Shown here in pieces: positions 1 to 14,819 of a stretch of 14,819 nucleotides of DNA (position 1 is its first letter; each line of letters opens with the position of its first letter). A model generated the notes under the pieces. It was not told where the DNA came from and made no database searches. It was given only the letters and a program-made list of their open reading frames with translations. The DNA lies in contig JAHLWH010000170.1 in the NCBI GenBank assembly GCA_019058015.1, forward strand, positions 1 to 14,819, in the 5' to 3' direction. The DNA is from Promethearchaeota archaeon. GTDB lineage: Archaea; Asgardarchaeota; Lokiarchaeia; Sigyniarchaeales; SOKP01. The position numbers and the translations under genes are program-made.

Positions 1-16
1 ATAAAAGGGAGCCAGT

Positions 17-202
17 TTGCCTGAATATGAAGTTAAGATAAAATTCCATATTTTTCCATATAGAAAATTCAACATTATCGCTACTGATGATGAAGAAGCG
101 AGAAGAATTGCTAAAATCCAAGCAGAACATATTATTAATACTTTAGACTTTACTATTGCTAGTATAAGAACTAAACGATATTTGATGGACAGGTTTTTAT
201 GA
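17..202 (+). CDS. Small hypothetical protein, possibly from a mobile element or virus
   Basis: 61-aa ORF with a TTG start after a GGGAG RBS-like sequence. Its TGA overlaps the ATG of a following 12-codon micro-ORF (ATGA at 199-202). No family recognised. Confidence 0.5.
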   Translation: MPEYEVKIKFHIFPYRKFNIIATDDEEARRIAKIQAEHIINTLDFTIASIRTKRYLMDRFL

Positions 203-256
203 AAAGAGCAAATCTATTCTGTCCTTGTTCGAATTAAAAAGAGAAAATTTTTACTC

Positions 257-697
257 TTAATTTAACTTAACATTTGCTAAAGAATATCTAACCGCCCACC
301 CTTCCACATTTTTATCCAATTCTTTTACTTTCCTCACCATAGGCACAAAATCACCGTCTCCAGATACCAATACCGCCGTATCATACGCATTTTCATACGC
401 AAGAGAAATTATATCAATCGCGATTTTGATATCAACTTTCTTCTCAATGGCATCACTAAACGTTATCTTATCAAAACTCGCTTTAATCACATATCCACTT
501 CTATTACTTAAATCTTCATACCACTTCTTCTTCTCTGGACTCATGGGATACACGACACCTTCATATAAAAATATGCCCTGTAATTTTCGGCCCTTAGTTA
601 TGATGTGTTTCAGTTTTTCATAGTCTGCCTTGATATTATACTTCCTAAAGCCCTTGAAAATGTTGCTATTATCTATAAAGATTATGATTCGTTCCAT
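257..697 (-). CDS. NYN/LabA (PIN-like) domain protein, apparently C-terminally truncated
   Basis: Motifs IFIDNSN, EKKVD and LVSGDGDF are typical of the NYN/LabA family. It ends abruptly after YSLAN and lacks the usual final helix/strand. Confidence 0.85.
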   Translation of the reverse strand: MERIIIFIDNSNIFKGFRKYNIKADYEKLKHIITKGRKLQGIFLYEGVVYPMSPEKKKWYEDLSNRSGYVIKASFDKITFSDAIEKKVDIKIAIDIISLAYENAYDTAVLVSGDGDFVPMVRKVKELDKNVEGWAVRYSLANVKLN

Positions 698-810
698 ATC
701 AAAAACCTTTTTTGCTTCATTAAAGATACTAAAGTTCTTTTTTTTTTTTCAATTATTTGAACTTCTTTTGTAAATATAAGCATTTAAATACTTACTTTCT
801 ATAACCTGTT

Positions 811-927
811 GGGTGTTCTGCTACAGATGTAGAATGTTTAGTATGTGGAAAAACATTACTTCAATCTACTGGTGGTAAAGCACGAATTCTAACGAAGATT
901 TTAGAAGTGGTTTCCTCGGTAAGATAA
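811..927 (+). pseudogene. rps27e: 3' fragment of ribosomal protein S27e (copy 1)
   Basis: Translates GCSATDVECLVCGKTLLQSTGGKARILTKILEVVSSVR*, matching the C-terminal half of archaeal S27e (CxxCG...TGGKA.I...ILEV). In-frame TAA at 802-804, no start codon, first CxxC missing. Confidence 0.85.
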
Positions 928-1063
928 ATTCTATAATCCTAATACAATCATTTTGATGAAAGGATTGCTTTATCAGCAAGATAATCTCGTTTTATTATTT
1001 TATCAGTTTCTTTAAAAATATTCAATAGAAAATCTTTTATGTTAATTTCTATTTTCAACATCA

Positions 1064-2017
1064 ATGATTAACATTTTTAGTGAACAATTTGATGAGGATA
1101 TCGAAATCGGTGAATTAGCTAATTTCATTTACAGAGTAAGAAAAGATAATAATTTCTTAGGAGATCAAACTATAGAATCAATAAAAGAAGAGTTAATGGA
1201 AACAAGGGATTCGTATGATATTCTCCTATTTTATGCCTATATTAATGCTAGGTTAGTAGGATTACTTCTCTTAAATATAAACACTCCTAGATTTGGATTT
1301 ATTTGGGATTGGTATCCATATGTGGTACCAGGACCTAAAGAAGATTTAGTAGCAATTGAATTATTAAAGAATTGTATCGAATATACTGGTAGAGATATTG
1401 ATAGATTCGAAGTCGCTTTTACAATTGAGACAGAACAAGATAAGACACGATATATTCAACATTCTAAATGGTTTGAAGCATTAAATTTTTATCGAATCGC
1501 AGAAGAAGCAGTTATGGAATTAACTCTTAAAAATAAAGAATTTGAACCTCTTCCCTTTCCTGAAAATATTGATCTTAAATCAATTAAAGATGCTGATTTG
1601 AACGATTTAGTCGATTGTGCCTATGAAGTATTTAACACAAGCCAGGATACAATATTTCTGGATCTTGATGAAGCACAGAAACAAGTTATGGTAAATAAAT
1701 ATTTTGATACATCTAAACCGATTTTTGAAGACGCTTCAGTAGTCCTGATGAAAGGCGGAGACGTTATAGGATTTGTAGTTGTAAATCCTGATGGTAAACA
1801 AGCGGAAATAAGATCGTTAGGAATTAAACCCAAATATAGAAATAAAGGATTAGGAAAGAATCTATTAAAATTGAGTTTAAGTATTTTAATAAAAAATGGG
1901 TTTAAAGTGGTTTTTTTAGATGTTACATTAGAAAACAAACCTGCCCTTGGACTTTATTCAAAATTGGGCTTTAAAATATCATCTACATCTAATTTATATG
2001 GATTAACCTGTGATTAA
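1064..2017 (+). CDS. Tandem-domain GNAT family N-acetyltransferase
   Basis: C-terminal domain has the acetyl-CoA motif A (LGIKPKYRNKGLGK) and ENKPALGLYSKLGF. The N-terminal half looks like a degenerate GNAT repeat. Confidence 0.9.
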   Translation: MINIFSEQFDEDIEIGELANFIYRVRKDNNFLGDQTIESIKEELMETRDSYDILLFYAYINARLVGLLLLNINTPRFGFIWDWYPYVVPGPKEDLVAIELLKNCIEYTGRDIDRFEVAFTIETEQDKTRYIQHSKWFEALNFYRIAEEAVMELTLKNKEFEPLPFPENIDLKSIKDADLNDLVDCAYEVFNTSQDTIFLDLDEAQKQVMVNKYFDTSKPIFEDASVVLMKGGDVIGFVVVNPDGKQAEIRSLGIKPKYRNKGLGKNLLKLSLSILIKNGFKVVFLDVTLENKPALGLYSKLGFKISSTSNLYGLTCD

Positions 2018-2099
2018 CATTAAAACAAAAGAAAAAAGAAAGAAAAAAAGTAATTTTAATTTGATATTGCTTTAAAACATAGCTTCAAATGAATATAAT

Positions 2100-2153
2100 A
2101 GTACTGGTGGAAAAGCTAGGATACTAACGAAAATCTTAGAAGTCTTATCCTAA
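2100..2153 (+). pseudogene. rps27e: 3' fragment of ribosomal protein S27e (copy 2), with a natural-looking stop
   Basis: agt act ggt gga aaa gct agg ata cta acg aaa atc tta gaa gtc tta tcc taa = STGGKARILTKILEVLS*; 16/17 aa identical to 865-915. Confidence 0.8.
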
Positions 2154-2205
2154 AAAACTTAAATTTCAAATCTAATTGTGTTTTATTGTTTGAACTTCAT
2201 TTTGA

Positions 2206-2227
2206 TCGTGAAACCACCCTTTCACGA
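2206..2227. repeat. Perfect 8-bp inverted repeat with 6-nt spacer
   Basis: TCGTGAAA-CCACCC-TTTCACGA, lying between S27e copy 2 and the 3' end of the MtaA-like gene. Confidence 0.7.
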
Positions 2228-2257
2228 ACTTAGATCATATATTAAAACTATTATGGT

Positions 2258-3271
2258 TTAGTCGAAATATGTCTTTACAGCGTGTACAAAAGCTTTTACG
2301 TTTTTTATAGGTGTGTCTCCAGTAATTTCACATCCTGGTGCGACTATAAAGCGTGGATCACCTCTACTTGCATTTAAAGCTGCGTGAACTGCTACTTCAA
2401 TTTCTTTTGGTGTGCCAGATGGAAGTAATTTAACATGATCAATATTTCCAGCCACACCTATCTTATGATCAAACAATTCTTGGGTTTTAGTAATGTCAAC
2501 ATATGGTCCAATGCTCAATGTGTTTAACCTATCAATTTTTTTAAGGTAACCCGCAACAACATTTAGATGTGGCGTTATCTTTCCACACATATGAAGGATA
2601 TTATAGTCATACACATTAAGGATCTCAGGTAGATAATCTATACTGAATTCTTTTACATGAGTAGGTCTCAACATCTGAAGATCATGTTCACAGATTACAA
2701 AGATTGTTGCTCCAGCTTCTTTCAAAACATAAATGTACTCCTTAATTATTTCAATAGTTCGTTTGACTAATTGGTGTACAAAATTAGGGTTTTTTACTAG
2801 CCTTCTGATCAAAGCTTTATAAGGCATTAGCTGTAAACTAAAAGATATTGGACCCGTCATGAAAGCTGCTACAGGAACATTAGCTTCCTTGGCAAGAATT
2901 CGTGTACCTTCAATCAAAACTCTTGTACTTTCTGTTAACATGAAATCTGGTATCTCTAATCCTTCTAAATCGCTTTCTGATTCAATCACGTATTTGGTAA
3001 TCCAGGGATTTTTATTAGACGGATAAGTAACTTCTGCACCACAAGCTTCGGCAACCGGCCAGCTTGGTTCAACCTGAATTGTTGTTATATCATAACCATA
3101 CAAATCCAATGCTCTTAAATGAGCTTTTGCAGCTTTTTTCGCATCTTTATACATACTATTATAAGTTAGCCCATTTATAATCCCCGCATGATCCCCGATT
3201 TGGGGAAATACTGGTGGTCGATCAACTGAACGACCTTTCAAAGCAGCAAAAATACGATCAAATGAATCCAT
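2258..3271 (-). CDS. URO-D/MtaA-CmuA family methylcobamide methyltransferase (MT2-like)
   Basis: N-terminal DRPPVFP, Zn-binding HxC (LHMCG), AGNID and C-terminal APGC motifs; lies near a corrinoid protein. Confidence 0.85.
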   Translation of the reverse strand: MDSFDRIFAALKGRSVDRPPVFPQIGDHAGIINGLTYNSMYKDAKKAAKAHLRALDLYGYDITTIQVEPSWPVAEACGAEVTYPSNKNPWITKYVIESESDLEGLEIPDFMLTESTRVLIEGTRILAKEANVPVAAFMTGPISFSLQLMPYKALIRRLVKNPNFVHQLVKRTIEIIKEYIYVLKEAGATIFVICEHDLQMLRPTHVKEFSIDYLPEILNVYDYNILHMCGKITPHLNVVAGYLKKIDRLNTLSIGPYVDITKTQELFDHKIGVAGNIDHVKLLPSGTPKEIEVAVHAALNASRGDPRFIVAPGCEITGDTPIKNVKAFVHAVKTYFD

Positions 3272-3380
3272 TAGGTATAATATTCACTTTAATTTATAAA
3301 AATAAAAATTAGAGACTAAATAAATCTAATATTTTTAAATAATTAAATTTAATATTTTCTGAAGTTTACTCCATCTGAAG

Positions 3381-3941
3381 ATGCCTTTCGTTCAAATAAA
3401 ATATTATGATATTTATTTCGATCCTAAAGTTCAGGAGATGTGTATTTCACCTAGTTTTAAGTGTCCTTTTTATGGTCATTCGTGGAGTTGTCCTCCAAAT
3501 TCACCTTATCTTGAAAAAGCTATGTCAACTTACACAGAATTTTATTTAATCTACTCTACATTTGATCTGGAAGAATATATTAAGAAAGAAAAGGAAAGGA
3601 CAAACAGATCAGAATTTTTCATTAAAAATACATTTTTACTCACCAAAAGTTTCGAAATAAATGGTTTGGAAACTGAATTCGATAAATTCTTATCCCAATA
3701 TAATAAAAAGTATAAAAAACGACTTCTTTTGTATGATAGGACATGCAAATACTGTAAAATTCAAAACGCGGGAAATTGCACCTTTGATTCTGGCGAACTA
3801 TGCCGTTTTCCAAGAATGATAAGATATTATATGGAAGCTATAGGGATTGAAGTTATAAGGACGGTACGCGAACTGAATTTAGATGTTGAATATCCCTCCA
3901 ATAAATATTCATTTAGATTTGGCTTAGTTTGCTTTAAATAA
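3381..3941 (+). CDS. DUF2284-like Cys-rich predicted metal-binding protein
   Basis: Motifs CPFYGHSWSCPP, CKYC...C...CRFP and MEAIGIEV. Confidence 0.8.
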   Translation: MPFVQIKYYDIYFDPKVQEMCISPSFKCPFYGHSWSCPPNSPYLEKAMSTYTEFYLIYSTFDLEEYIKKEKERTNRSEFFIKNTFLLTKSFEINGLETEFDKFLSQYNKKYKKRLLLYDRTCKYCKIQNAGNCTFDSGELCRFPRMIRYYMEAIGIEVIRTVRELNLDVEYPSNKYSFRFGLVCFK

Positions 3942-3960
3942 AAAAAAATAAAAAAAAAAA
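3940..3960 (-). terminator. Oligo-T tract (minus strand) between convergent genes
   Basis: Long A-run on the + strand just downstream of the stop of the minus-strand URO-D gene, consistent with an archaeal oligo-U terminator. Confidence 0.4.
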
Positions 3961-3970
3961 TTTAAATTAA

Positions 3971-5227
3971 TTAATATTTTCCGTATTCCATTACAGCTTC
4001 GGTCATAGCTTTTACGTTTTCAATCTTAGCGTCGCCCATGCCATTGAATTCCGTTGTAACTATATAGCCTCCGCCGGGTTTGTACTTTTTTATTGTTTCT
4101 TCCATGTGTTTTTTGACTTTTTCGGGCGTTCCACTAATGAGGAGTGATGAAGGTATACCACCAGCGATACAATAATCGCCTCCTACTACATCTTTTACTT
4201 TTGATAGGTCTGTTTTATCAAACCAAAGAATCACTTTCCCTTTAGGAAGTTCTAAAAGAGTGTCTAACAAATGATCGTAGCGACCTTGGAAGCACATGAG
4301 AGGAGTAAAATCTGCTTCAACTAATTCCTTGACAATCATTTTTATATATGGGAAATGGAATTCCCTGTACTTTTCGGGTGATAAGTATGTATTGTACCAG
4401 ATCGGACAGAACACTCTACGAGAACCTGTTACATCCCTTGAGATTTTACCTGTCATTTTCCCTACTGTGGCTAATACAGGTGCTAAGTTTTCACAAGCTG
4501 CTTTGACTTTCTCTGGCATTCTATAAAGATCCAACGAAAGAGTATCGAAATCTCTAAGGAATGCTCCAATAACGTCCAGAGGATTTGGAGCCAAAGCATA
4601 ATACCATGGAAGCCAGGCTTCTTCTTTCATTTTCCCAACAAATTCACCTAAAAAACCCGGAAATTTATTAAGTTCTTGACCCATTTTCAATAATGAGCCA
4701 ACAGCTGTTGGAGAATTTAAATTTTCTAGATTTCTATATGCTCTCGGTATAACAGTTCCCATGAGAAACTCAAAGGGTCGCTCTATTAGGTCATCATACT
4801 CATCATCGTTCATGACAGGTTTATCTATAACAAATTGTGATTCAACATTTTCCTTCAATTCTTTACCTGGCATTGAAGAGTAAACATCGGCTAAAATATC
4901 ATGTGATGCACCTCCAGCTAAAGCGGAGGAGACTGCTACACCAATAGCTAAATCAGCATCATATCCTGCTAACGCTAGTCCAAGAGGGGCACTTTCAAAT
5001 GAACGAAGGAGACTGAGACCATCCCAGTTAAAATCTCTAGCGAATTTAGTCCCTACTTCTATGTATTTATTATTGTCATAGAACATGTCATGATAACTTA
5101 CACCTGCGTATTTTGCTGGAAAGTAAGTAGTCGCAATCCCTATAGGTACTCTATCAGGTTCTTTTCCTTTCGCGGCAGTTTCTAATCTTTCTAATTTCGC
5201 TTTATAAATTTCTTCACTATCTTCCAT
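3971..5227 (-). CDS. Uroporphyrinogen decarboxylase (URO-D) superfamily protein, corrinoid-associated methyltransferase-like
   Basis: Motifs EPDRVPI, DLYRMPEKV, LSPEKYREF and CIAGGIP...GTPEKV...PGGGYI. Start placed at ATG 5227 (GGTGAG RBS) rather than the GTG at 5239; directly follows the corrinoid gene. Confidence 0.85.
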   Translation of the reverse strand: MEDSEEIYKAKLERLETAAKGKEPDRVPIGIATTYFPAKYAGVSYHDMFYDNNKYIEVGTKFARDFNWDGLSLLRSFESAPLGLALAGYDADLAIGVAVSSALAGGASHDILADVYSSMPGKELKENVESQFVIDKPVMNDDEYDDLIERPFEFLMGTVIPRAYRNLENLNSPTAVGSLLKMGQELNKFPGFLGEFVGKMKEEAWLPWYYALAPNPLDVIGAFLRDFDTLSLDLYRMPEKVKAACENLAPVLATVGKMTGKISRDVTGSRRVFCPIWYNTYLSPEKYREFHFPYIKMIVKELVEADFTPLMCFQGRYDHLLDTLLELPKGKVILWFDKTDLSKVKDVVGGDYCIAGGIPSSLLISGTPEKVKKHMEETIKKYKPGGGYIVTTEFNGMGDAKIENVKAMTEAVMEYGKY

Positions 5228-5228
5228 T

Positions 5229-5858
5229 TTATGACTCACCTTCTACCCAATTTTTAATTATTTTAACACCTTCGACTGCATCGTTGACCCAAGCATCCGC
5301 TCCCACGTGCTCACAAACACCTTGATCCATTCTTTCTCCTCCGACTATGATTTTTATTTCCTCTCTTAGTTTCGCATCACTTATACTTTCTATGGTTTTC
5401 TTCATGGGTTCTATTGATAACGTGAGCAGTCCACTCAAACCAACTACTTGAGGTTTGTGTTCCTTTATAGCATCCACAAATTTCTGGGGAAGAACATCTA
5501 CACCTAAATCAGTAACATCAAATCCTGCAGCCTTTAAGAAAGTTATAGCTATGTTCTTGCCTATATTATGTATATCCCCTTCAACAGTACCTATAACTAC
5601 TTTTCCTTTAATTTCAGATTCGGAAATAACCAATTTAGGCATTAAAAGTTCCATAGCTTCCTTGAATATCTCTCCTGCCATAATTAAATCCGTTAGAAAT
5701 GCGGTTCCTTCTATAGATTGATTGCCTATATCTGCTATACCTTTTCTGCAAGCTTCTAAAATTTTAAAGGGATCCTCATTAGCATCAAGTTTTTCCTTTA
5801 CTAATTTTAAGACCTTATCTTCCTCTAAATCAGCTATTGCATCAGAAATTTCTTTCAT
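5229..5858 (-). CDS. Corrinoid (B12-binding) protein, MtaC/MtbC-like
   Basis: B12 motif DxHxxG (EGDIHNIGK), DLGVDV, GLSGLL and IIVGG...VGAD, plus an N-terminal helical cap domain. Confidence 0.95.
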   Translation of the reverse strand: MKEISDAIADLEEDKVLKLVKEKLDANEDPFKILEACRKGIADIGNQSIEGTAFLTDLIMAGEIFKEAMELLMPKLVISESEIKGKVVIGTVEGDIHNIGKNIAITFLKAAGFDVTDLGVDVLPQKFVDAIKEHKPQVVGLSGLLTLSIEPMKKTIESISDAKLREEIKIIVGGERMDQGVCEHVGADAWVNDAVEGVKIIKNWVEGES

Positions 5859-6225
5859 ATTAATTGATCCTCACTCAATTTTTTCCTTAAAATTTTTTGA
5901 TATATTTTTATAATTTTTGAATCAAATTTCAGTATGTATAATCTTAATAAATAATTTTACTTTTTCGATCATATATTTATGAAATTGAGACATTTATTTT
6001 GTTCAAGTTAATAGCTTTTTTTATCAATAAATATAATTCTTATCCAAATCCACTATTACCTAGTAGAAATTCGTTAAGATATTTAAAATTTTAAGAGAAA
6101 AAAACCCGTACTATCTATTTTTAAAGTTTGTAAGACATTTAAGACATGAAAAGACAAACATTTTGTCTTGTTAATTTTACAAGTAGAAAGTGATAACCCT
6201 TAATATAATAATAATAACAATAATT

Positions 6226-6279
6226 TAATATTTTGTTTCCACTAATTTCATTAGCTCCCCCATAAAAAGTTGGCCTCAT
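6226..6279 (-). pseudogene. N-terminal remnant of an MBL-fold metallo-hydrolase
   Basis: MRPTFYGGANEISGNKIL resembles the 'LTFYGGVNEIGGNKIL' start of RNase J-like/MBL proteins. AGGTGG RBS upstream; similarity is lost after 18 codons. Confidence 0.6.
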
Positions 6280-6337
6280 ATTAACCCACCTTAAATTTAT
6301 TGAAAAGATAAGTAATTCTAAAATAAATAATTTCAAT

Positions 6338-6397
6338 TGCTGTGATACCACATGTGAGGGTGAATTTAAAAGTAATCCTGAAAAATATTTAAAATGA
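6338..6397 (+). pseudogene. C-terminal remnant of a YHS/TRASH domain
   Basis: CCDTTCEGEFKSNPEKYLK* resembles the YHS pattern FCxxxC...F..NPEKY; the N-terminal DPVCGM part is absent. Confidence 0.55.
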
Positions 6398-6530
6398 AAT
6401 AATTGAGGCTTCGATAGTTCGTGAAAATGGCCAAATTACAATTCCAAAAGAAATCTGGGAAAAATTAGGAATTAAAAAGGAGATAAATAGATTCTTGACT
6501 TAAAAGACAATTAAATAATAATTACTCATA
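6394..6530 (+). pseudogene. Decayed AbrB/MazE/SpoVT-family DNA-binding protein
   Basis: EIIEASIVRENGQITIPKEIWEKLGIKK, then after a frameshift GDK*ILDLKDN*III; carries the GQITIPK...LGIK.GD signature. Confidence 0.75.
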
Positions 6531-6625
6531 AGCAAATATGTAATGTGATAAACCGATATAATCTGTATAATATTTTAATAGCGTCCTACTTATAATTAAA
6601 TTAAAAATTCAAGACATAGTTGCAG

Positions 6626-7405
6626 TCAAGGTGATAATGCATTTTTAATTTCATGTCGAAGTTTATCTTTTTCTATCTCTCCATTCAATTTGACCATTTT
6701 TCCATTAATAAATATTTTTCTAGAAATGCCAAATCGCAGTAAAATTTCTGGATCATCTGCTGAAAATTCATTTAGAACAATTTTATTTCCAAATTCAGCA
6801 ACTACTTCTCTTACTCTCTGTGCTTCAACATCACTTGTTTGACAGAAAGTATTCCAAAATAGATCAATTATAACTTTACCTTTTATTGGCTTAAATATAT
6901 ATTTTTCTTTTCTAAATTGAGGAGGTTTGGCTGTTTGATCTAATTTTTTCCAAAGAATAGCTTCCTCACCTCGCTTATCAGCTATTTGGAATCCAAGACC
7001 CACAAAATATTTTGCTGGCATATACCAAAAATCCCAGAAAAAAGCGATAGTTGCAAGACCTTTGAGATTCTGTTTGCGAGTTTCTTCTTCAGCAGCTTTA
7101 ATCAATAATTTACCAATTCCTCTTTGAGAAAAACGTGAATGTGAAACTAAACAAGGAAATACCATTAAATCCTTACCTTGTACTGGCCATGGGGATATTT
7201 CAATAGGCATAATATGTATAAAACCTGCATGGATATTATCTACGAGTGCGATTTTAACTCTCAACCCTAATTTTTCCATACTACGAAGCCAAGGAATACG
7301 TCGCTGAGCGGACATTTCATACTCAAGATTATTTTCATTCACATGTGTGCAAGTTCCAACAAAATACTCATCATCTTTAGTCATATCACGAATAATTATC
7401 CCCAA
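6626..7405 (-). CDS. GNAT family N-acetyltransferase with C-terminal thioredoxin-like domain
   Basis: Motif A QRGIGKLLI..AEEE. The C-terminal part LFWNTFC...FGISRKIFING resembles a small Trx-like domain. TTG start with GGTGA RBS. Confidence 0.8.
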   Translation of the reverse strand: MGIIIRDMTKDDEYFVGTCTHVNENNLEYEMSAQRRIPWLRSMEKLGLRVKIALVDNIHAGFIHIMPIEISPWPVQGKDLMVFPCLVSHSRFSQRGIGKLLIKAAEEETRKQNLKGLATIAFFWDFWYMPAKYFVGLGFQIADKRGEEAILWKKLDQTAKPPQFRKEKYIFKPIKGKVIIDLFWNTFCQTSDVEAQRVREVVAEFGNKIVLNEFSADDPEILLRFGISRKIFINGKMVKLNGEIEKDKLRHEIKNALSP

Positions 7406-7687
7406 TTAATTCACCACACAATCATTTTTCTAGCAACCAATTGGTCTTCAATGATATCAAGATTGTATAAATAATTTATTTATTTAAAAATGTATAAAAA
7501 AGAATTGGAATCATTTATGAAAAATCTATTTGATAATTTTATTCTTCTTAGCAATAAAAGAATATACGCAAAAAAGATGTATAATCAATACTGGAATTAG
7601 AAACTCCTAAACAATTAATAGAACATGGCAAAAAAAAAGAAGGAATAAAAAATAGGCTCAAGATTTTAATTTTTTTCTATGTTTCTC

Positions 7688-7921
7688 TTATAAAGGAACA
7701 ACAATATGAGTCGCTGTTCTATCTACCCCATCTATCTTATGTATTTTTGATAAAATTACTTTTGCAATCGTCTCAATATCTTTTGCTTCTACTTTTATAA
7801 TTATATCAATCTCTCCTGTTACTGCATGAGCCTCTTTTACCTCATCCATTTTATTTAACTCATTAATTACATTTTCTACAAAACCAGCTTTAGTTCTCAT
7901 TAAAACATAACTTAAAGGCAA
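7688..7921 (-). CDS. Stand-alone Lrp/AsnC ligand-binding (RAM) domain protein
   Basis: 77 aa; EVKEAHAVTGEIDIIIKVEA...IHKIDGVDRTATHIV; no HTH. Confidence 0.9.
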   Translation of the reverse strand: MPLSYVLMRTKAGFVENVINELNKMDEVKEAHAVTGEIDIIIKVEAKDIETIAKVILSKIHKIDGVDRTATHIVVPL

Positions 7922-8114
7922 TTTTAAAAATCTCTCCTTTTGTTTCTTTTTTTAAATATTTGGCTTAAAAAATAAGATTATAACTAGACATTTAACTATT
8001 TTGTAGAAATATAAAAAAAATAACTTTATGGCCAGTATCTATTTAGATTTATATTCCTCTAGTTGCAAGAATTCTTATTCCAAATGCTAGCATGATTCCT
8101 TATGATTTCTAAAG

Positions 8115-8501
8115 TTATCTTTCTGTTTCTGATTTTCGTTTAATTTTTTCAATGAAATCTTTGCGTATAGGGTAGAAAATATCGAGCATTATAAAAGGTT
8201 CACTTCCAATACAAGTATCACTATGGGGAGTATTTGAGGGGATACAATAGAAATCTCCCTTTTGAACAATTTGCTCTTCATCACCGATGCGCAAGACCGC
8301 TTTACCAGAATATACTATGCCAATTTGTTCATGAGGATGGGAATGTAAAGGAACAGTACTCCCTACTTTTGTCTTATTGAGTACCATCATCATCTTTTCA
8401 CCATGAAGCCCTGTTAGAATAGTAGTTTCAAGCTGTGGCATTTGATTTAACTTGGTAGCATTATTTAGATTTATAAAGTAAGAAATCTTCTTCTGCTTCA
8501 T
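8115..8501 (-). CDS. Cupin domain protein
   Basis: Metal motifs PLHSHPHEQ...SG and GD...IPSNTPH, followed by LDIFYPIR. Confidence 0.9.
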   Translation of the reverse strand: MKQKKISYFINLNNATKLNQMPQLETTILTGLHGEKMMMVLNKTKVGSTVPLHSHPHEQIGIVYSGKAVLRIGDEEQIVQKGDFYCIPSNTPHSDTCIGSEPFIMLDIFYPIRKDFIEKIKRKSETER

Positions 8502-8886
8502 TTATTTATATCCTCTATTTTTAATTAAGCATTTAATTCATTAAAATAAATTAGGTTTGAAACAAAAATCATGGGTTAGGTTAAATATTTAAATATTTTC
8601 ATTACTAATTCTATTTTTTAAATATTTAAAAGAAGCAAAAAAGCCCATAAAATTTTATTAAATTTAAATTCTAAATGAGTTGGAGGACTGAAACAATAAT
8701 TAAGGATTTCAATGAAAAAAATAGATTGTTTCACTAATAATTGGACTATATTATATTTTAATTATTCATATCATATGAATACACATTAAATAAAAATAAT
8801 AAGTATTGAATAAAAGTAATTTTAGAAGATAGTTAATTCTAATATAAAATTTTTAATCACCAAAAAATAGAGGTGAATTTTCTTTT

Positions 8887-9597
8887 TTGAGTGAAATTAA
8901 CAATAAAACTTTGCTTAATAATTATAAATTCAGAGTAATTTTTACTTGGATTTGGTTTTTTATAGGTTCAATCATAGTTATTCTTATTTTTTTTTTAATA
9001 AAGAATTTTGACATTGAGGAAACCCTATCAATTTTAAATAATGAAAGGCATTTAATGGTATTCATAGAATTTAGTTCAGTCGGATTCATGCCCTTATTAA
9101 TTACTATAATGTGCAAGGATAATCTTGGTCTATATGGTGTGAATAAAGTTAAGAGAAATATACTTAAATCTATTGTTCCTTCAGCTTTGATGATTGCAAT
9201 TATGTATAGTATTGGTTATTTACTAAATGGTGTTATAATAAAATCTGAATCTTATGAGTTTGGTCTTGAAATTCCTTGGAATATCATATTTGGAATTATT
9301 AGTGTGTTTACATGGGGACCTTTAGAAGTATTTTTTTATATTTGGCTGATAACTAATACAGATATGATATTTGATGAGAGAAATAAGCCGTTTTCAAAGG
9401 GATTAATCATAACAACTATTGTTTTTGCGGCTGCTCATATTCTTACTACTAATGTTAGAAATGCATTCTATGTGGGAGGTATTTTTCTTGTTTTGGGATT
9501 GATTTATAAGTATTCAAATAACATTTTGGGTCCAGCTATAGCTTGGACGATGATAAACGGAACGATATGGTTTGTATCTCAAATGTTTTGGGTATAA
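8887..9597 (+). CDS. CPBP (Abi/CAAX protease-like) integral membrane protein with degenerate catalytic motifs
   Basis: Several TM segments. GPLEVFF sits at the EExxxR position, FAAAH is intact, and WTMIN sits at the HxxxN position. GAGGTGA RBS with TTG start. Confidence 0.7.
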   Translation: MSEINNKTLLNNYKFRVIFTWIWFFIGSIIVILIFFLIKNFDIEETLSILNNERHLMVFIEFSSVGFMPLLITIMCKDNLGLYGVNKVKRNILKSIVPSALMIAIMYSIGYLLNGVIIKSESYEFGLEIPWNIIFGIISVFTWGPLEVFFYIWLITNTDMIFDERNKPFSKGLIITTIVFAAAHILTTNVRNAFYVGGIFLVLGLIYKYSNNILGPAIAWTMINGTIWFVSQMFWV

Positions 9598-9868
9598 TAT
9601 AATCTCTATATTTTAAATTGAAAATTACAATTTTTCTCCTTTAATTTCCTCTTTATATTTCTTTCATCATTCAGTTAAATATATTCAAATGATTCTGTTA
9701 ACTAAGGTTAGAAGGATTAAATTAAAAGCCCTTGATAATATTGCTTCTAGTCATCATCTTATTATTTGAGACATTAGCTTTTTTTTATAGAACTAAAGTT
9801 TTATAACTTTAATTTAATATGATGAAATCCGTAGAGAAGAATTTTTCCCAATTGAGAAGGTGGTTTGA

Positions 9869-10057
9869 TTGAATAAGATCCTGATTAGTGAGAAGGAATA
9901 TCACGATAAAGTGTATGCATGTTGGTTAGGTAAAAATATTGGAGGAACTTTGGGAGCACCCGTATCAGAACGGTATGCCCAATCTATTGGGGCTGATGGA
10001 TACGCCAAAAACGCAAAAGAAGCAGTTGATAAAGCAATCAGTCTAATTAAAAAATAG
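9869..10057 (+). pseudogene. Chimeric remnant: ADP-ribosylglycohydrolase N-terminus fused in frame to a corrinoid-protein C-terminus
   Basis: aa 11-32 YHDKVYACWLGKNIGGTLGAPV resemble the ADP-ribosylglycohydrolase start. aa 29-62 GAPVSERYAQSIGADGYAKNAKEAV resemble the end of a B12-binding domain. Confidence 0.75.
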
Positions 10058-10393
10058 AAAGAAAAAGGAGACAAAAAAAAATAAATTAAGGGAAGGATTT
10101 CACTATTGAAGATATGAAAAATATGCTGAGATATTTTTCTGTCACCGACCTTTATATCAGAAAAGCAGTGCATAATGCAATTGGAAAGACCTATAAAAAA
10201 TTATAATGAATAAATTTAATATCAGTTATTTTTTTGCTTTTAATTTTGTCTAAAAAGATAACTTTAAATTGACAAATTTGTATAGAAATACTGGTATAAT
10301 TATACAAAAAAGTTCAATTCTATTATTTTGGAAATTGAATTTCGATATTAAATAACCAAGAAAAGGGAGAAGCTATAAAAAATAGTTGTTAAA

Positions 10394-11002
10394 ATGTCTC
10401 TAGATTACAAAACTCATATTTATAATCTAATGCAACTTGTACCTTCTATTTGGGCTGTTGCTATAGTTGAGGGAGAAAATAACATTGTATATTCTACAGA
10501 TAATTGGGATATTAGTGCAGATGTAGAAAACGTATGTTCAAGTTGGAACTCAATGAGAGCTCCATTTATCATAGTTTCTGGAGTGAAATATATGTTATTA
10601 GAATGTGAAATTGATAGTTTGGTTGCGACATCAATTAAAAAAGAGGGGCATATTGTTGGAGTGAAAAATGAAGAAAGGAAAATCATCACTTACGTTGAGC
10701 CTGATGGAGATAGAAAAGCAGCAATCGTGGAACTTTCAAGAGTTTTACAAGCCATGTGTCCTAAAACGCTATATATGGACGCAAATAACAAATCTGATAG
10801 AGCAGATCTAGCAATGGAAACAAGAGAGACAGGTTATGTAGATCCGCAAATGAAAAGTAAAATTGAAGAATTTTTAAATTGGATTAAAAATCCAGATGGG
10901 CTCGCAGGCTATATTAATTATTATCTTCAACAAAATGATGTTCAAACAATTTTTGAGTTAGCCAAAATTTATGCAGAATTAAGACAAATTTTCGGAGTAT
11001 AA
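10394..11002 (+). CDS. Asgard-type profilin-like protein with C-terminal helical extension
   Basis: First ~120 aa follow the Asgard profilin pattern (AVAIV, STDNWDIS, SGVKYM, GHIVG, ITYVEP), followed by a linker and a ~55-aa helical domain. Confidence 0.7.
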   Translation: MSLDYKTHIYNLMQLVPSIWAVAIVEGENNIVYSTDNWDISADVENVCSSWNSMRAPFIIVSGVKYMLLECEIDSLVATSIKKEGHIVGVKNEERKIITYVEPDGDRKAAIVELSRVLQAMCPKTLYMDANNKSDRADLAMETRETGYVDPQMKSKIEEFLNWIKNPDGLAGYINYYLQQNDVQTIFELAKIYAELRQIFGV

Positions 11003-11152
11003 TTTCTATTTAATATTTTGGATAAAATTTTGAAGTACATTAAAAAACAAGATTTGTAAGAATAGAAAAAAAATTAATAAAAATATAAATATTTTTAGTA
11101 ATTAATGTAGGAAAAATATATTGATTTTATGCATAAATTGGAGGAAAAAGGA

Positions 11153-11797
11153 ATGAATGTACCAGAAAGTAAAGTTGAGATCAGTGGGTTTGTGGCACGA
11201 TTTTACGACCAATTGTTACGGATCGCCAGCTTTGGTAAATACAACGGTATGATGAAAGCGGCGATTGCCGACATGGATATTCAGCCTGATGATGCGATTC
11301 TGGATATGGGCTGCGGCACTGGATATAACAGCTGTCTCATGGTCAAGTATCTTGGCAATGACGGTAAAATTATAGGACTCGATATCAGCAAAAAGATGAA
11401 GAAGCAATTTGAGAAAAAATGCCAAGAGTGCCCCAATATTTCATTTATTCAAAAACGAATCGAAGACCCCTTGCCGTTTCATGATGAGTTTGACAAGGTT
11501 TTTATATCGTTTGTCTTTCACGGATTTCCGAACTCAGAACGAAAAAAGATCGCTCAAAATGCATTTAATGCGCTTAAGTCGGGAGGACGGTTTACCATCT
11601 TTGATTTTAACGAGTTTAACCTTGATGCTCAGTCATGATGGTTTCGCTCTGCATTTCGCAGAATTGAATGTCCTCTGGCTTTTGAGTACATCACGGTTGA
11701 TTGGAAAGGCCAGCTGTCTGAGTGGGGAATCGATAATTTTAACGAACATTTGTACTTTTCAAAACGAATTAGTCTTCTCAAAGCCACCAAAAAATAA
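11153..11797 (+). pseudogene. Class I SAM-dependent methyltransferase (UbiE-like) interrupted by one in-frame TGA at 11636-11638
   Basis: Motifs ILDMGCGTG, GLDIS, FDKVFISFVFH and LKSGG. After the TGA the same frame stays open for 52 codons (WFRSAFRRIECPLAFEY...LLKATKK*). Likely start is ATG 11153 after GGAGG; the track start is 11129. Confidence 0.8.
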
Positions 11798-11822
11798 TAG
11801 TGCTTCTCAACAATGGTTCCAT

Positions 11823-12153
11823 CTAAATTCTTTTTAAAACTCTTGTATTTGTTAAAATATAACTCTCATTATATCTTTCTCGCTTTTTTTTTTTATATCT
11901 CTTATTAATTTAAGTATAACGAATATAATTATTGTATCCATAAAGATAACAATGGATAATCCTAATAACTCGAGCAATGTATCTAAGTTATAAAAATAAT
12001 TAGTAATGCCAAAGTAAAAATAACGAAAAATATAGTAATAATAAGGCCCTGCTTATACCGCTTCAAATCTGTTGAATATCTAAAGTTGTTAAAAAATTCT
12101 TTATACCATAATATCTCTTCATTTGGTTCTAATATTTTTTTAATCTCTTCCAT
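11823..12153 (-). pseudogene. Frameshifted membrane protein remnant (bPH-domain-associated type)
   Basis: MEEIKKILEPNEEILW..., then a TM helix and a stop at 11983. A second TM follows in a shifted frame, and after the A11 run a further frame gives YNESYILTNTRVLKRI*. Confidence 0.5.
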
Positions 12154-12241
12154 ATGGATTTCTTAATTATGTAAATCGTATTAATAGTATAAAATTACAT
12201 CTTTCCTTTAAATTTATAATAAAAATGATTATTCAGTTGAT

Positions 12242-12511
12242 TTATCCCCAATCGCTTTTATAACCAGTTCCTCCAGGGGGCCATGAGAAAAAGATTGCTT
12301 CTTCCTGACAAACATACCAGCATGCGGCACATTCCATACATTTTTCTAAACTCTTAATTTTAGCTTTTTTTTCCATGATTTCGAAACACCCAGCTAAACA
12401 AACTTTCACACAATTGCCGCATCCTATACATTTCTCATCATTAATTTTTATAAACTCGCCCGCGCCCTCAACCCATTGCACACCAGGAAAATCTTTAAAT
12501 GTTTTAACCAT
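12242..12511 (-). CDS. FixX-like 2x[4Fe-4S] ferredoxin
   Basis: CIGCGNCVKVC and CMECAACWYVC, with a FixX-like C-terminus WPPGGTGY...G. Directly downstream of the FixC-like gene. ATG 12511 preferred over TTG 12520. Confidence 0.9.
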   Translation of the reverse strand: MVKTFKDFPGVQWVEGAGEFIKINDEKCIGCGNCVKVCLAGCFEIMEKKAKIKSLEKCMECAACWYVCQEEAIFFSWPPGGTGYKSDWG

Positions 12512-12527
12512 ATTTATCAACTCTTAC

Positions 12528-14192
12528 TTAATATACATAAAATATTGATGGATTGGCTTTATCTACAAATTTTATCATTTTGTTGCTTAATTTATTCGAT
12601 ATAGGATTTAATAATTTTATAATCGCTGAATTGATGGGCTCAATAATAGGCAAACTTTTTCTCATTAACGTGTTCAAAGAATTTGAAAGAGGAATTATAA
12701 TGATTTTAAGTACTCTTCTTATACGCAGCATTGATTTCATTATTAAGTCTATAAATCTCAACGTGCTTAGAAATTTGCGTTCCTTCTTTCTGACTCGTTT
12801 TGATGCTGTGACTTTAATGACCTTCTTTTTCACATAATCATAACTCTCGTGAAGCCAATTCTGATAATATCGGAAGTACATCTTAATCCATTTTGTTATT
12901 ATCGTTGGATCTTCTTTCACATAGGCAAGGAGCAGCTTCATGAACGGCGTGGTAAAATGTGTCAACGAGCCTAACCCCCAACCTTGATGAATATACTTCT
13001 TGAGCTTCTTTATATCATGCTCTTGTTGAGCGATACGCAAATTATAGCGATTTCTACCCTTGATAGACCACTGAATAATTGAATGTGCCTTTACCTTATC
13101 ATCATATTTCTTCAAAAAAGCTTTGGAAACGTCATTGGCTTTAATTGCTTCAATTGCGACCTGGGCGGCAATTTCGGCTGAATACCATGCTGCCGGCACG
13201 CCATCACACAATTCTGTACTTTCAAGCCCCGCAGCATCTCCAATTAATATCATACCATCCGTATGATTAGGCATTTTCCGGAGCTTTTTATTTAGCCCTA
13301 CATAAATCTCGAAGCCTTCCCACATCCTTGCACGCAATTTAGCTCGAGGAGCTACTAAATCTTTCCACCACAACAGTTTTGAAGTTATATTATGATGATA
13401 CTCATCAAATAGTTTACCTAAATTTGGCACCGATTTCTTATCTGTTCTTAAACACTGGTCCTGCATAAAATGAATACTACTTCTATAAGGCCACACCATT
13501 AGACCATTGCCATAACCAAGCGGCGGAGATATTTTTTGCTCGTCCCAGCCCCAACACATCTTAACGGAATATCCAAAAATTTTATCAATGTCTTCTTTTC
13601 GCATAATATAGTCGTATGTATCGGCTAACGAGATGGTTTCAGGTGGATATTTTTCGCGCACGCCCGCCTTTATCGCTAATATGCCCTGCGAGCACTAAGC
13701 ATTTATTACAATCTTAGCCCTAATTTTCTCGCCTTTATCTGTTATAATTCCTTTAATGAATTCGCCCTCTTTTATAAAATTGGTGACTGTAGTTGACGTC
13801 CTTAGTTCAACGCCTGCCTCCACGGCCTTTCTGGCTTGCCACTGACAAAATGGCTTACAATAAGTATTATAACCAAATGCAATGATCGGAGAGAGTGGTT
13901 TCGGGACCTTTAGTGAATCATCGATTTCAATATCCCCTTTATCGATGTCTTTTATAATATAGTTTACAATACCATCAGCAGGACGCTCAAAGGGAGGATT
14001 ACCATCCCTAATAAATGTTGGAGCAAATAAAAATCCTTGAAATGGAATAGTTAAACCCGAAATGACTTTATCGCCAACATTCTCAGAACGTTCAAGCATT
14101 AAGGTTTTAAGCTCGGCATCAGCGCAGAGCTTCGCTGCTACAGAACCCCCAAACCCAGCACCAACAACAATAATATCAAAGTCTTCGTCCAT
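12528..14192 (-). pseudogene. FixC/geranylgeranyl-reductase-family FAD oxidoreductase interrupted by one in-frame TAG at 13695-13697
   Basis: GxGxxG (VVGAGFGG) and LER in the 5' ORF; LIGDAAG...GV in the 3' ORF. The two track ORFs share a frame and are joined by INA*CSQGILAIKAGVREKYP, giving 554 codons in total. Confidence 0.85.
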
Positions 14193-14215
14193 TTATAAAA
14201 TATTGAATAAAGAAG

Positions 14216-14223
14216 TATATAAA
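14216..14223 (-). promoter_or_regulatory. Candidate archaeal TATA box for the FixC-FixX-like operon
   Basis: TTTATATA on the minus strand, 24-31 nt upstream of ATG 14192 with an A-rich upstream flank; no RBS, so possibly leaderless. The AT-rich background weakens this call. Confidence 0.35.
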
Positions 14224-14254
14224 TTTATTATTTTAATTTTGTAATTATTTTCTC

Positions 14255-14464
14255 TTAATTAAAATATTGATTTAGCTTTCTTAATCCTTCAATAATCAAA
14301 TCTACTATTTTAAACATAGGCATTTTTACTGCCCATCCATATTCATCAAATAAGTATACAGGAAGTTTCCAAAAGAGCATTTTACGTGTTTCTCTTCGAT
14401 ACATGCCTATAAATGCACCTCCAACGATTTCACTTGTTCCAGAATCATCAATTTCTATAGTCAT
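14255..14464 (-). pseudogene. Probable N-terminal fragment of an RNase H-like-fold archaeal protein
   Basis: MTIEIDDSGTSEIVGGAFIG resembles the first acidic strand of RNase HII-like folds (IDEAG.G..VG). GGGAG RBS upstream. At 69 aa it is too short for the whole fold. Confidence 0.45.
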
Positions 14465-14483
14465 TTAACTCCCTTATACTTAA

Positions 14484-14807: not shown

Positions 14808-14819
14808 TAATACTTGAAC

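What the first reader, a model, noticed from the sequence alone, without database searches (positions are those of the whole stretch)
811..2153. Two start-less 3' copies of rps27e flank a cargo gene: possible integration hotspot in a ribosomal protein gene
Seen: 865-915 and 2100-2150 both encode STGGKARILTKILEV(V/L)S in the same orientation. They differ at 12 of 51 nt, 10 of them synonymous. Copy 1 extends 5' to about 811 (second CxxC); copy 2 ends in TAA. A single GNAT gene lies between them. Established: elements that integrate into protein-coding genes (e.g. e14/phage 21 in icd) carry a replacement 3' end and leave the displaced 3' end as an att scar. Inference: synonymous-biased divergence means each copy was once the working end of an S27e gene. 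This suggests at least two successive integrations into rps27e, possibly at different crossover points (near 811 and near the shared TACTGGTGG), with the intact gene and integrase to the left of the window. I do not know of rps27e being described as an attB site in Asgard archaea.
Basis: partly seen in the sequence, partly recalled or inferred. Interest (0 to 1): 0.88.

Follow-up and report, generated by a model that had tools for sequence, protein, structure and literature searches.

The report
Dead S27e ends in transferred DNA
Two leftover tail pieces of a ribosomal protein gene mark DNA that came from a related archaeal genus and was pasted into this genome, while the real insertion hotspot is a small palindrome just after that gene in the donor genus, so the finding is real but more ordinary than proposed.

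Summary
Both start-less S27e 3' fragments exist as described. They differ at 12 of 51 nt and 1 of 17 residues, and a GNAT gene lies between them. They do not flank an element inserted into this genome's working rps27e. That gene sits intact on another contig (C204), in its native rpl44e-rps27e/TFS/PCNA context, with no insertion. The window is a whole contig. Left of copy 1 there is no gene head or integrase. There is a microhomology junction (806-809) with the last ~19 codons of a truncated methyltransferase gene. Window 809-5875 is 88-97% identical to another genus (g2) of the same Promethearchaeota family, against a 65-71% baseline. In g2 an intact rps27e is followed by the same GNAT gene. 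Copy 1 is therefore the donor-type gene cut at the edge of a transferred segment. Copy 2 is probably the tail and spacer of another lineage's rps27e, stranded between the GNAT gene and a conserved palindrome. No other genome searched keeps such fragments except the near-identical G002. In relatives, two integrase-bearing elements (G125, G027) are inserted in that palindrome just downstream of rps27e, not in the coding sequence. The hotspot idea is partly right, but the proposed mechanism is not supported here.

The parts
257..697 (-). NYN-domain gene, native to the own genus (g1) and multi-copy in relative G004
   Evidence: Pfam NYN 88.7 bits. Window 271-805 is 91% identical to G001:C54, and window 271-724/714 is 91-92% identical to two places in G004:C4.
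746..805 (-). Relic of the last ~19 codons of a SAM-methyltransferase gene that is intact in relative G001
   Evidence: The minus-strand translation ends like the G001 gene. The G001 gene is Pfam Methyltransf_11 at 65.8 bits. Nucleotide homology to G001 stops at 805.
806..809 (.). Junction between g1-type DNA (left) and g2-type DNA (right), at a 9-nt microhomology shared by the two parental sequences
   Evidence: Three-way alignment of the window, G001 and G127. A contig of run X1 spans 760-3400. A contig of run X5 has the same boundary at 809 with a different left flank.
810..915 (+). Copy 1: 5'-truncated rps27e of the donor (g2) type, about 35 C-terminal codons
   Evidence: Pfam S27e 35.1 bits, model positions 23-54 of 55. 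93-96% nt identity to intact rps27e of G127, G121 and metagenome contig L132. 74% residue identity to the genome's own S27e.
916..927 (+). Read-through tail of copy 1: the former stop codon is mutated (TAA or TAG in relatives, TCG here), and a Leu codon became Val
   Evidence: Comparison with G127, G083, G145 and G099.
951..975 (+). Weak hairpin about 35 nt after the former stop of copy 1. It is perfect in G127 and deleted in G145, G083 and G133. It may be the positional counterpart of the palindrome. Tentative.
   Evidence: Read. Similarity to the spacer of copy 2 is not significant: 1140 of 3000 shuffles reach the score.
1064..2017 (+). Two-domain GNAT acetyltransferase gene. In five g2 genomes and four metagenome contigs it lies directly downstream of an intact rps27e.
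   Evidence: Pfam Acetyltransf_1 72.2 bits. 85-94% residue identity in G083, G121, G127, G133, G145 and L132-L136.
2048..2189 (+). 142-bp stretch missing from the closest relatives (G127, L132, L133). It consists of 52 nt of unknown origin, copy 2, and 36 nt of spacer.
   Evidence: blastn gaps at 2047|2190. Sequences side by side.
2100..2153 (+). Copy 2: last 17 codons plus TAA of an rps27e of a lineage not sampled
   Evidence: 17 of 17 residues equal the family consensus C-terminus. The best nt match to any native rps27e in 135 family genomes is only 85% over 52 nt. Present in G002 and in contigs of runs X19, X5 and X6.
2204..2229 (.). Palindromic site with 10-nt inverted arms (2204-2213, 2220-2229) around a 6-nt centre (2214-2219). 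This is its only copy in this genome. In relatives it lies just downstream of rps27e and is where integrase elements are inserted.
   Evidence: Single hit in G000. Found in 36 of 42 g2 genomes with 0 hits for the reversed pattern. Element-flanking direct repeats lie inside it in G125 (10 bp) and G027 (17 bp). RNA-fold z-score -1.24 here and -3.66 in G123.
2258..5875 (.). Rest of the g2-like segment: URO-D-type methyltransferase (-), DUF2284 (+), a second URO-D-type gene (-), corrinoid protein (-)
   Evidence: Pfam. 88% to G125, 95% to G123 and 97% (2200-3760) to G145, against a g1-g2 baseline of 65-71%.

Best explanation
The two fragments are dead 3' ends of S27e genes that arrived as passengers in foreign DNA. 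A stretch of at least 5 kb (window 809-5875) from a genus-g2-like member of the same Promethearchaeota family sits in a variable region of this genus-g1 genome. In g2, the working rpl44e-rps27e operon is followed after about 40 bp by a conserved palindrome. Single-gene cassettes such as this GNAT gene can lie between the stop codon and the palindrome. Tyrosine-integrase elements insert into the palindrome itself. Copy 1 is the donor-type working rps27e, cut about codon 31 when the foreign DNA was joined by microhomology to a truncated methyltransferase gene. This happened either at uptake or by a later deletion. Copy 1 has since lost its stop codon. Copy 2 is older. It is the last 17 codons plus spacer of a different lineage's rps27e, still at native distance from the palindrome. 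It was most likely stranded when the segment 'rps27e-GNAT' replaced the head of that gene by recombination, homologous on the left and illegitimate on the right. Most relatives have since deleted the relic. Shown: fragment identities, junctions, foreign origin, native locus elsewhere, and the att site in relatives. Inferred: the direction and order of events, and the recombination mechanism behind copy 2.
For: The window equals contig C170. The intact rpl44e-rps27e is on C204, flanked by pyrB on one side and by TFS, an OB-fold gene and PCNA on the other, with TFS ending 7 bp from the rps27e stop. C204 is 93% identical to G001 and G004 but 65-71% to g2 genomes. Window 809-2047 is 93-96% identical to g2-type G127, G121 and L132. 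Window 2102-3961 is 95% identical to G123, 2200-3760 is 97% to G145, and 2212-5875 is 88% to G125. In those relatives rps27e is intact. The flanks are g1: window 1-330 is 97% and 12188-14819 is 98% identical to G004, and 271-805 is 91% to G001. The junction shows a 9-nt microhomology between the two parental sequences, and the methyltransferase relic is visible on the minus strand. The junction is spanned by an X1 contig, and the 809 boundary recurs in X5 with a different left flank. Relative to G127, copy 1 has Leu->Val and a mutated stop. Copy 2 with its spacer lies 53 nt before the palindrome, a spacing like the native one. By my collation, 18 of the 28 g2 genomes with gene and site on one contig have them about 16-61 nt apart. 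G127 and L132 keep the last ~18 nt of the same spacer. The series window > G127/L132 > G145/G133/G083 looks like progressive deletion. Integrase elements inside the palindrome: G125, 10.1 kb, PF00589 79.5 bits; G027, 17.6 kb, PF00589 72.2 bits.
Against: The tree of the rps27e-GNAT region is star-like, with supports of 43-84%. The closest relative (L132, 96%) and G127 lack exactly the same 142 bp, so that stretch could be a later insertion in the window's lineage rather than a relic. No sampled genome carries copy 2's sequence as a working gene end; the best match is 85%. No relative shows 'intact rps27e-GNAT-copy 2': 0 of 5 g2 genomes and 0 of 4 metagenome contigs that cover the interval. Copy 2 has no residue change from the consensus. 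That is somewhat surprising for an old neutral relic, given 4-12% divergence among GNAT copies. G002's contigs break inside 89-1458, so the 805/809 junction is not confirmed by that second genome. X1 is probably the source sample. Only Logan contigs, not raw reads, were laid.
Confidence: 0.6

Rival explanations
1. One reading: elements integrated twice, site-specifically, into the coding 3' end of this genome's rps27e. Each brought a replacement tail and left the displaced tail as an att scar, and the intact gene and integrase lie just left of the window.
For: Two direct, same-orientation tails flank a cargo gene, with synonymous-biased divergence. Copy 2 starts abruptly at a 9-mer shared by both copies. 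The contig ends 800 bp left of copy 1, so linkage beyond it cannot be seen. Downstream of the intact gene, C204 runs 13.8 kb to a contig end.
Against: Directly left of copy 1 is a methyltransferase relic and a NYN gene, not the gene head. The intact gene on C204 abuts its native neighbour TFS with 7 bp between them, so nothing is inserted there. Copy 1 is 74% identical in residues to the own gene but 97% to other genera. No integrase was found in the window. Fragments do not recur.
Confidence: 0.04
2. One event of the first reader's kind did happen, but in the donor lineage. A small integrative element carrying the GNAT gene and a replacement S27e tail recombined site-specifically at the shared 9-mer inside rps27e. 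Copy 2 is the displaced host tail (attR), and the integrase was lost later.
For: The architecture is gene-new tail-cargo-old tail, with homology starting exactly at the shared 9-mer. Both flanking scars decay or are deleted in relatives, as expected of useless att remnants. Integrase elements are active at this locus in relatives.
Against: No integrase lies next to any of the GNAT copies examined: 5 g2 genomes (a sixth genome contigs locus, L101, is identical to G083 over the aligned GNAT region) and 5 metagenome contigs, within the flanks fetched. The two demonstrated integrations use the palindrome, not the coding sequence. A 9-nt identity inside a conserved gene is expected anyway. g2 genomes without the GNAT gene have the same tail sequence as those with it, 2 differences in 54 nt, so no 'element-type' tail can be told apart.
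Confidence: 0.15
3. Assembly or binning artefact: C170 is a chimera of a g1 and a g2 population from the same sediment, and the fragments are cut ends of mis-joined contigs.
For: g1-like and g2-like stretches alternate along one contig. Run X19 holds both parental forms: the methyltransferase continuing after 805, and an intact rps27e before 809. The NYN region is repeated, and G002's contigs break there.
Against: A 3449-nt contig of X1 crosses 805/809 with 45 nt on the left and only 3 differences. A contig of X5 shows the same 809 boundary joined to other g1-type sequence. G002, a separate genome entry of the same genus, also holds window 1458-6229 at 98%. There is no shared repeat at the junction, only a 9-nt microhomology with two substitutions. 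Copy 1 carries pseudogene mutations absent from all intact g2 genes. Copy 2 lies inside an uninterrupted g2-like stretch.
Confidence: 0.06
4. The 142 bp holding copy 2 is a late insertion into a G127/L132-like arrangement, for example a patch from another lineage's rps27e end introduced by recombination at the palindrome. It is not an old relic.
For: The closest relative L132 (96%) and G127 lack exactly 2048-2189. The tree is unresolved and the window has the shortest branch. Copy 2 has no residue change from the consensus.
Against: G127 and L132 retain the 3' part of the same spacer next to the palindrome. This is simplest if they lost the rest. The more extensive deletions in G145, G133 and G083 show that loss is ongoing at both scars.
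Confidence: 0.15

Closest known systems
e14 / phage 21 type integration into the 3' end of icd in E. coli
   Same: Duplicate 3' gene ends in direct orientation flank inserted DNA. The copies differ mostly at synonymous sites.
   Different: Here there is no integrase, no intact gene head next to copy 1, and no recurrence in relatives. The locus is not the genome's working rps27e. Integrations demonstrated in relatives use a site downstream of the gene.
Tyrosine-recombinase integrative elements of Asgard archaea with short att repeats, e.g. Yucahu-i in Atabeyarchaeia (PMC11529989, passages read) and HeimV1 next to a tRNA-Gly gene (PMC8813620, passages read)
   Same: The G125 and G027 elements carry a PF00589 integrase at one end and are bounded by 10- and 17-bp direct repeats.
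   Different: The target here is a 10-6-10 palindrome just after rps27e, with related copies at a few other loci per genome. In the passages I read those papers report an 11-bp AT-rich motif and a tRNA-adjacent site. None of this machinery is present in the window itself.
Homology-facilitated illegitimate recombination and microhomology joining of foreign DNA (general bacterial/archaeal HGT mechanism; recalled)
   Same: One junction (806-809) shows a 9-nt microhomology between the parental sequences. Copy 2 fits a join that is homologous on one side and illegitimate on the other.
   Different: The mechanism is inferred from end-points only. No experimental system exists for these archaea.
Casposons inserted at the 3' end of the aEF-2 gene in archaea (recalled; PMC8464041 seen only in a search listing)
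   Same: A translation-apparatus gene end serves as a landmark for mobile DNA in archaea.
   Different: No casposase or Cas1 was seen, and there are no terminal inverted repeats or short target duplications here.

Membership tests
Ribosomal protein S27e gene (Pfam PF01667) | Sequence match over the curated cut-off | tested here: met
   Copy 1 scores 35.1 bits against a cut-off of 24.5. Copy 2 is too short for the model but matches 17 of 17 residues of the consensus C-terminus.
Ribosomal protein S27e gene (Pfam PF01667) | Complete zinc-ribbon (both CxxC pairs), start codon, proper stop | tested here: not met
   Copy 1 covers model positions 23-54 only, has no start and has lost its stop. Copy 2 covers the last 17 codons only. 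Both are pseudogene fragments. The complete gene is on C204.
Integrative element that replaces the 3' end of a protein gene (e14/icd type) | Integrase gene inside the element | tested here: not met
   The only ORF between the copies is the GNAT gene. None of the 15 window proteins scanned matched an integrase family. No homologue of the G125 integrase in G000 at E<=1e-15.
Integrative element that replaces the 3' end of a protein gene (e14/icd type) | Intact target gene head fused to the element-borne tail at attL | tested here: not met
   Copy 1 is joined at 806-809 to a methyltransferase relic.
Integrative element that replaces the 3' end of a protein gene (e14/icd type) | Direct repeats (att) at both ends, with an empty site in relatives | tested here: inconclusive
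   The 51-nt repeats are 76% identical, with a shared 9-mer at the start. g2 genomes without the GNAT gene exist, e.g. G123. The same picture arises from non-site-specific recombination.
Integrative element that replaces the 3' end of a protein gene (e14/icd type) | Excision or circular form | not testable with these tools
   Only assembled contigs of public runs could be laid. No joint that removes 916-2100 exactly was listed. The joints 916->2201 and 908->2204 in X19 are genomes without the GNAT gene.
Tyrosine-recombinase attachment site (core-type site: inverted arms around a short crossover region) | Inverted arms with a 6-8 nt centre | tested here: met
   Window 2204-2229 has 10-nt arms and a 6-nt centre. 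The same design is seen in 19 copies from three g2 genomes.
Tyrosine-recombinase attachment site (core-type site: inverted arms around a short crossover region) | Integrase-bearing elements bounded by repeats that lie in the site | tested here: met
   G125: 10-bp repeat, PF00589 79.5 bits. G027: 17-bp repeat, PF00589 72.2 bits. Only 2 clear cases. Of 8 further integrase-homologue loci, 1 has a motif-like site, 1 is doubtful and 6 have none in the 4 kb examined.
Tyrosine-recombinase attachment site (core-type site: inverted arms around a short crossover region) | Recombination at the site shown directly | not testable with these tools
   This needs read-level excision junctions or an in vitro assay.
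GNAT acetyltransferase (Pfam PF00583) | Match over the cut-off | tested here: met
   72.2 bits against a cut-off of 20.7, residues 222-303.

The most novel reading that the evidence does not exclude
The palindrome after rps27e belongs to a small family of 10-6-10 sites (2-7 per genome in genera g2 and g11, almost none in g1). These sites would act as dedicated recombination platforms in these Promethearchaeota. Integrase-bearing viruses and plasmids dock there. The rps27e-linked copy would also collect single promoter-less genes (GNAT, LRR and others) behind a highly expressed ribosomal operon, rather like an integron attachment site, with the recombinase supplied in trans. Copy 2 would be the footprint of one such cassette exchange that carried a replacement gene tail.
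Probability: 0.15. Interest if true: 0.65.

Novelty: new member of a known kind. Interest (0 to 1): 0.4.

Why it matters
For the finding as given, it shows that duplicated gene tails need not mark an att site in the genome where they are seen. Here they are cargo scars inside DNA moved between genera of Asgard (Promethearchaeota) archaea, and they give a dated, sequence-level example of inter-genus transfer joined by microhomology. The by-product may matter more. A conserved palindrome just downstream of rps27e is used by at least two different integrase elements in two genera, one of them virus-like, and related sites occur at a few loci per genome. My two literature searches and the passages read did not show this site described. 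If confirmed, it would give a simple sequence handle for finding integrated viruses and plasmids, and variable cassettes, in Asgard genomes.

Tried and rejected
Longer homology of copy 2 upstream of 2100: only a poly-A match, not meaningful.

Similarity between the spacers after copy 1 and copy 2, which would suggest a pair of att sites: a 10-nt identity, reached by 1140 of 3000 shuffles, so rejected as evidence. The hairpin at 951-975 is kept only as a lead.

RNA reading of the palindrome: no Rfam match at E<=1 in window 700-2400. Fold z-scores are -1.24 for the window and -3.66 for G123. A terminator role is neither shown nor excluded.

Donor of copy 2: not found. The best match is 85% over 52 nt in 135 family genomes. 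An exact 30-nt search of metagenome contigs found nothing.

Search for an 'intact rps27e-GNAT-copy 2' arrangement: 0 of 5 g2 genomes and 0 of 4 metagenome contigs covering the interval.

Ordering relic loss on a tree: unresolved.

General link between the G125-type integrase and the palindrome: 2 clear, 1 possible, 1 doubtful, 6 none. The integrase family is therefore not tied to this site alone.

Pyrrolysine reading of the in-frame TAG in the fixC-like gene: rejected. There is no PylS over the cut-off (best 27 bits against 178), and G004 has GAG at that codon.

Read laying gave only assembled contigs, so parts without cover and depth differences are not used as evidence.

Supplementary files of the papers were not opened and may list att sites that I did not see.
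Full report
WHAT IS THERE. The window is the whole 14,819-bp contig C170 of a 3.84-Mb, 29% G+C genome in 283 contigs. Public records holding the nearest relatives of its GNAT gene are titled Promethearchaeota or Promethearchaeia archaeon MAGs. Window 805-927 (+) is an open stretch of 40 codons with no start. It matches Pfam S27e from the second CxxC to the end (35.1 bits, cut-off 24.5). Window 2100-2153 (+) encodes the last 17 residues plus TAA. The shared 51 nt differ at 12 positions and one residue. None of 100,000 random 12-substitution sets was as conservative. One GNAT gene (1064-2017) lies between them.

WHERE THE WORKING GENE IS. A six-frame search of the genome finds one complete S27e gene, on C204:13852-14049 (-), mid-contig. 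It is preceded by rpl44e, and its stop lies 7 bp from the end of the convergent TFS gene. An OB-fold gene and PCNA lie beyond TFS, and pyrB lies on the other side. TFS, the OB-fold gene and PCNA also follow rps27e in other genera. C204 is 93% identical to the same locus in the congeners G001 and G004. Nothing is inserted there. The own-genus protein is divergent along its whole length. Copy 1 is 74% identical to it but 97% identical to S27e of genera g2, g6 and g11, and copy 2 equals their consensus tail.

WHAT LIES LEFT OF COPY 1. Window 271-805 is 91% identical to G001:C54. There a NYN gene is followed by a SAM-methyltransferase gene on the minus strand. The last ~19 codons of that gene are still readable at window 746-805. 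From 809/810 rightwards the window instead matches rps27e of genus g2. The two parental sequences share a 9-nt microhomology at the join. Both genes have therefore lost their 5' parts at one illegitimate junction. A 3449-nt contig of run X1, probably the source sample, crosses the junction. A contig of run X5 shows the same boundary at 809 behind a different left flank. Run X19 contains both parental forms.

FOREIGN ORIGIN OF 809-5875. Identity between this genome and g2 genomes at the native rps27e locus is 65-71%. Against that baseline, window 809-2047 is 93% identical to G127 and G121 and 96% to metagenome contig L132. Window 2102-3961 is 95% identical to G123, 2200-3760 is 97% to G145, and 2212-5875 is 88% to G125. 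In all of these rps27e is intact: 40 of 42 g2 genomes have exactly one hit and 2 have none, and 4 of 4 metagenome contigs that reach it have it intact. The contig's outer parts are genus-g1 DNA: 1-330 is 97% and 12188-14819 is 98% identical to G004, where these two blocks lie only ~150 bp apart. G002, a separate genome of the same genus, holds window 1458-6229 at 98%, against 93-95% at C204. I read this as recent transfer of a g2-type chromosomal stretch into a variable region of the G000/G002 lineage. Copy 1 is simply the cut end of that stretch. Relative to the intact G127 gene it has a Leu->Val change and a destroyed stop codon.

THE LOCUS IN THE DONOR GENUS. In g2 a 20-nt palindrome occurs in 36 of 42 genomes, with 0 hits for the reversed pattern. 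I collated by hand. In 28 genomes it lies on the same contig and strand as rps27e: about 16-61 nt after the gene in 18, at 100-540 nt in 3, and at 0.9-1.3 kb in 7. In those 7 a single gene sits between the two: the GNAT gene in G127, G133, G083 and G145 (G121's contig ends before the site), an LRR protein in G099 (Pfam LRR_4 97 bits), and another gene in G143 and G111. What follows the palindrome also varies: the native neighbour in G127, the methyltransferase/corrinoid cluster in G123, G145 and the window, and DUF2284 in G083 and G133.

In G125 a 10.1-kb element lies between the two halves of the site, bounded by a 10-bp repeat. It carries a tyrosine integrase (PF00589, 79.5 bits), an RHH/MarR protein and HTH proteins. 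In G027 (genus g6) a 17.6-kb element does the same with a 17-bp repeat. It has an integrase (72.2 bits) and sub-threshold terminase, portal and HK97-like hits. The integration hotspot is therefore real, but it is the palindrome downstream of rps27e, not the coding sequence. This genome has one copy of the site, at 2207-2226, inside the imported stretch.

COPY 2. Relative to G127 and L132 the window has 142 extra bp (2048-2189): 52 nt of unknown origin, copy 2, and 36 nt of spacer. The next ~18 nt of spacer before the palindrome are shared with G127 and L132. G145, G133, G083 and L134 have lost even more, on both sides of the GNAT gene. Copy 2 plus spacer stands 53 nt before the palindrome, which is like a native gene end. 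Its nucleotide sequence matches no sampled rps27e better than 85%. My preferred reading is as follows. A segment 'rps27e-GNAT' replaced the head of another lineage's rps27e, by recombination that was homologous upstream and illegitimate at codon -17. This stranded the old tail, which most descendants then deleted. The alternatives are site-specific integration at the shared 9-mer, an element-borne homology arm, or a late 142-bp insertion. They cannot be excluded, because the tree of the region is star-like (supports 43-84%) and no genome shows the intermediate with an intact gene.

RECURRENCE. A Pfam S27e search of 60 relatives found 3'-only fragments nowhere but in the window. A search with copy 1 as the protein query in 60 family genomes found them only in G002 besides the window. 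The same search in 42 g2 genomes found none. The other secondary Pfam hits are zinc-ribbon stretches inside ORFs of 106-340 aa.

COMPARISON WITH WHAT IS KNOWN. The picture resembles icd-type tail replacement only in outline. The defining parts (integrase, intact gene head, recurrence) were tested and not met here. The elements in G125 and G027 are ordinary tyrosine-recombinase integrative elements. Asgard examples with short att motifs or tRNA-adjacent sites are in print (passages of PMC11529989 and PMC8813620). A search for 'S27e' together with 'integration site' returned no paper, and the listing showed none on this site. Supplements were not seen.

VERDICT. The fragments are pseudogene scars in horizontally acquired DNA. 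Interest is moderate (0.4), mostly for the palindromic site family noticed along the way.

Noticed in passing
window 2204-2229; G123, G077, G127 loci L105-L123: The generic pattern GTGAAACNNNNCTTTCAC occurs in 119 of 135 family genomes, usually 2-7 times, with 0 hits for the reversed pattern. It occurs once in G000 and not at all in G003 and G004. In 19 copies from three g2 genomes the arms extend to 10 nt around a locus-specific 6-nt centre. In G127, 5 of 7 copies lie within 125 nt of a contig end, as expected where populations differ at the site.
   Followed up: partly
L079 (G125:C82) about 386-10490; L104 (G027:C6) reverse-complement coordinates about 646-18263: Two integrated elements lie directly downstream of rps27e. 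One is 10.1 kb and plasmid-like, with an integrase, an RHH/MarR protein and HTH proteins. The other is 17.6 kb, with an integrase, a TFIIB-like protein, and sub-threshold terminase, portal and HK97-fold hits, so it is possibly a tailed provirus.
   Followed up: partly
window 330-12188 versus L073 (G004:C4): In G004 the blocks matching window 1-330 and 12188-14819 lie ~150 bp apart. About 11.9 kb of the window is therefore variable between congeners. That stretch is a mosaic of g2-like, g11-like and g1-like pieces, e.g. 8735-9616 is 95% identical to G004 and 90% to a g11 genome, and 11118-11797 is 88% to G127.
   Followed up: partly
window 257-697 and 17-202; L073: The NYN gene is present at least twice in full, plus a 25-codon relic, within 12 kb of G004:C4. 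A 61-codon ORF (17-202) is 97% conserved next to the relic. Contigs of G002 and of public runs break in this repeat.
   Followed up: no
window 13695-13697 (-): The fixC-like flavoprotein gene (12528-14192, -) is interrupted by one in-frame TAG. G004 has GAG there, and also GGC where the window has TGC one codon further on. No PylS was found over the cut-off in G000, so this is a nonsense mutation or a sequencing error, not pyrrolysine.
   Followed up: yes
L051 (G002:C89) 2742-3030; window 1458: In G002, and in a contig of run X5 (joint 222->1461), the GNAT gene is cut at about codon 132 and joined to other sequence. That lineage therefore lacks copy 1 and the GNAT N-terminal half but keeps copy 2.
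   Followed up: no
L135 (metagenome contig) 936-1431: One relative carries an extra ~0.5 kb, apparently a second small acetyltransferase-like ORF, between the GNAT gene and the palindrome. This would be another cassette at the same spot. It was read by eye only.
   Followed up: no
window 11129-11837 (+): A methyltransferase ORF (Pfam Methyltransf_25, 73.8 bits) ends early and overlaps a second ORF in another frame, so a frameshift is possible. The stretch is 88% identical to a g2 genome.
   Followed up: no
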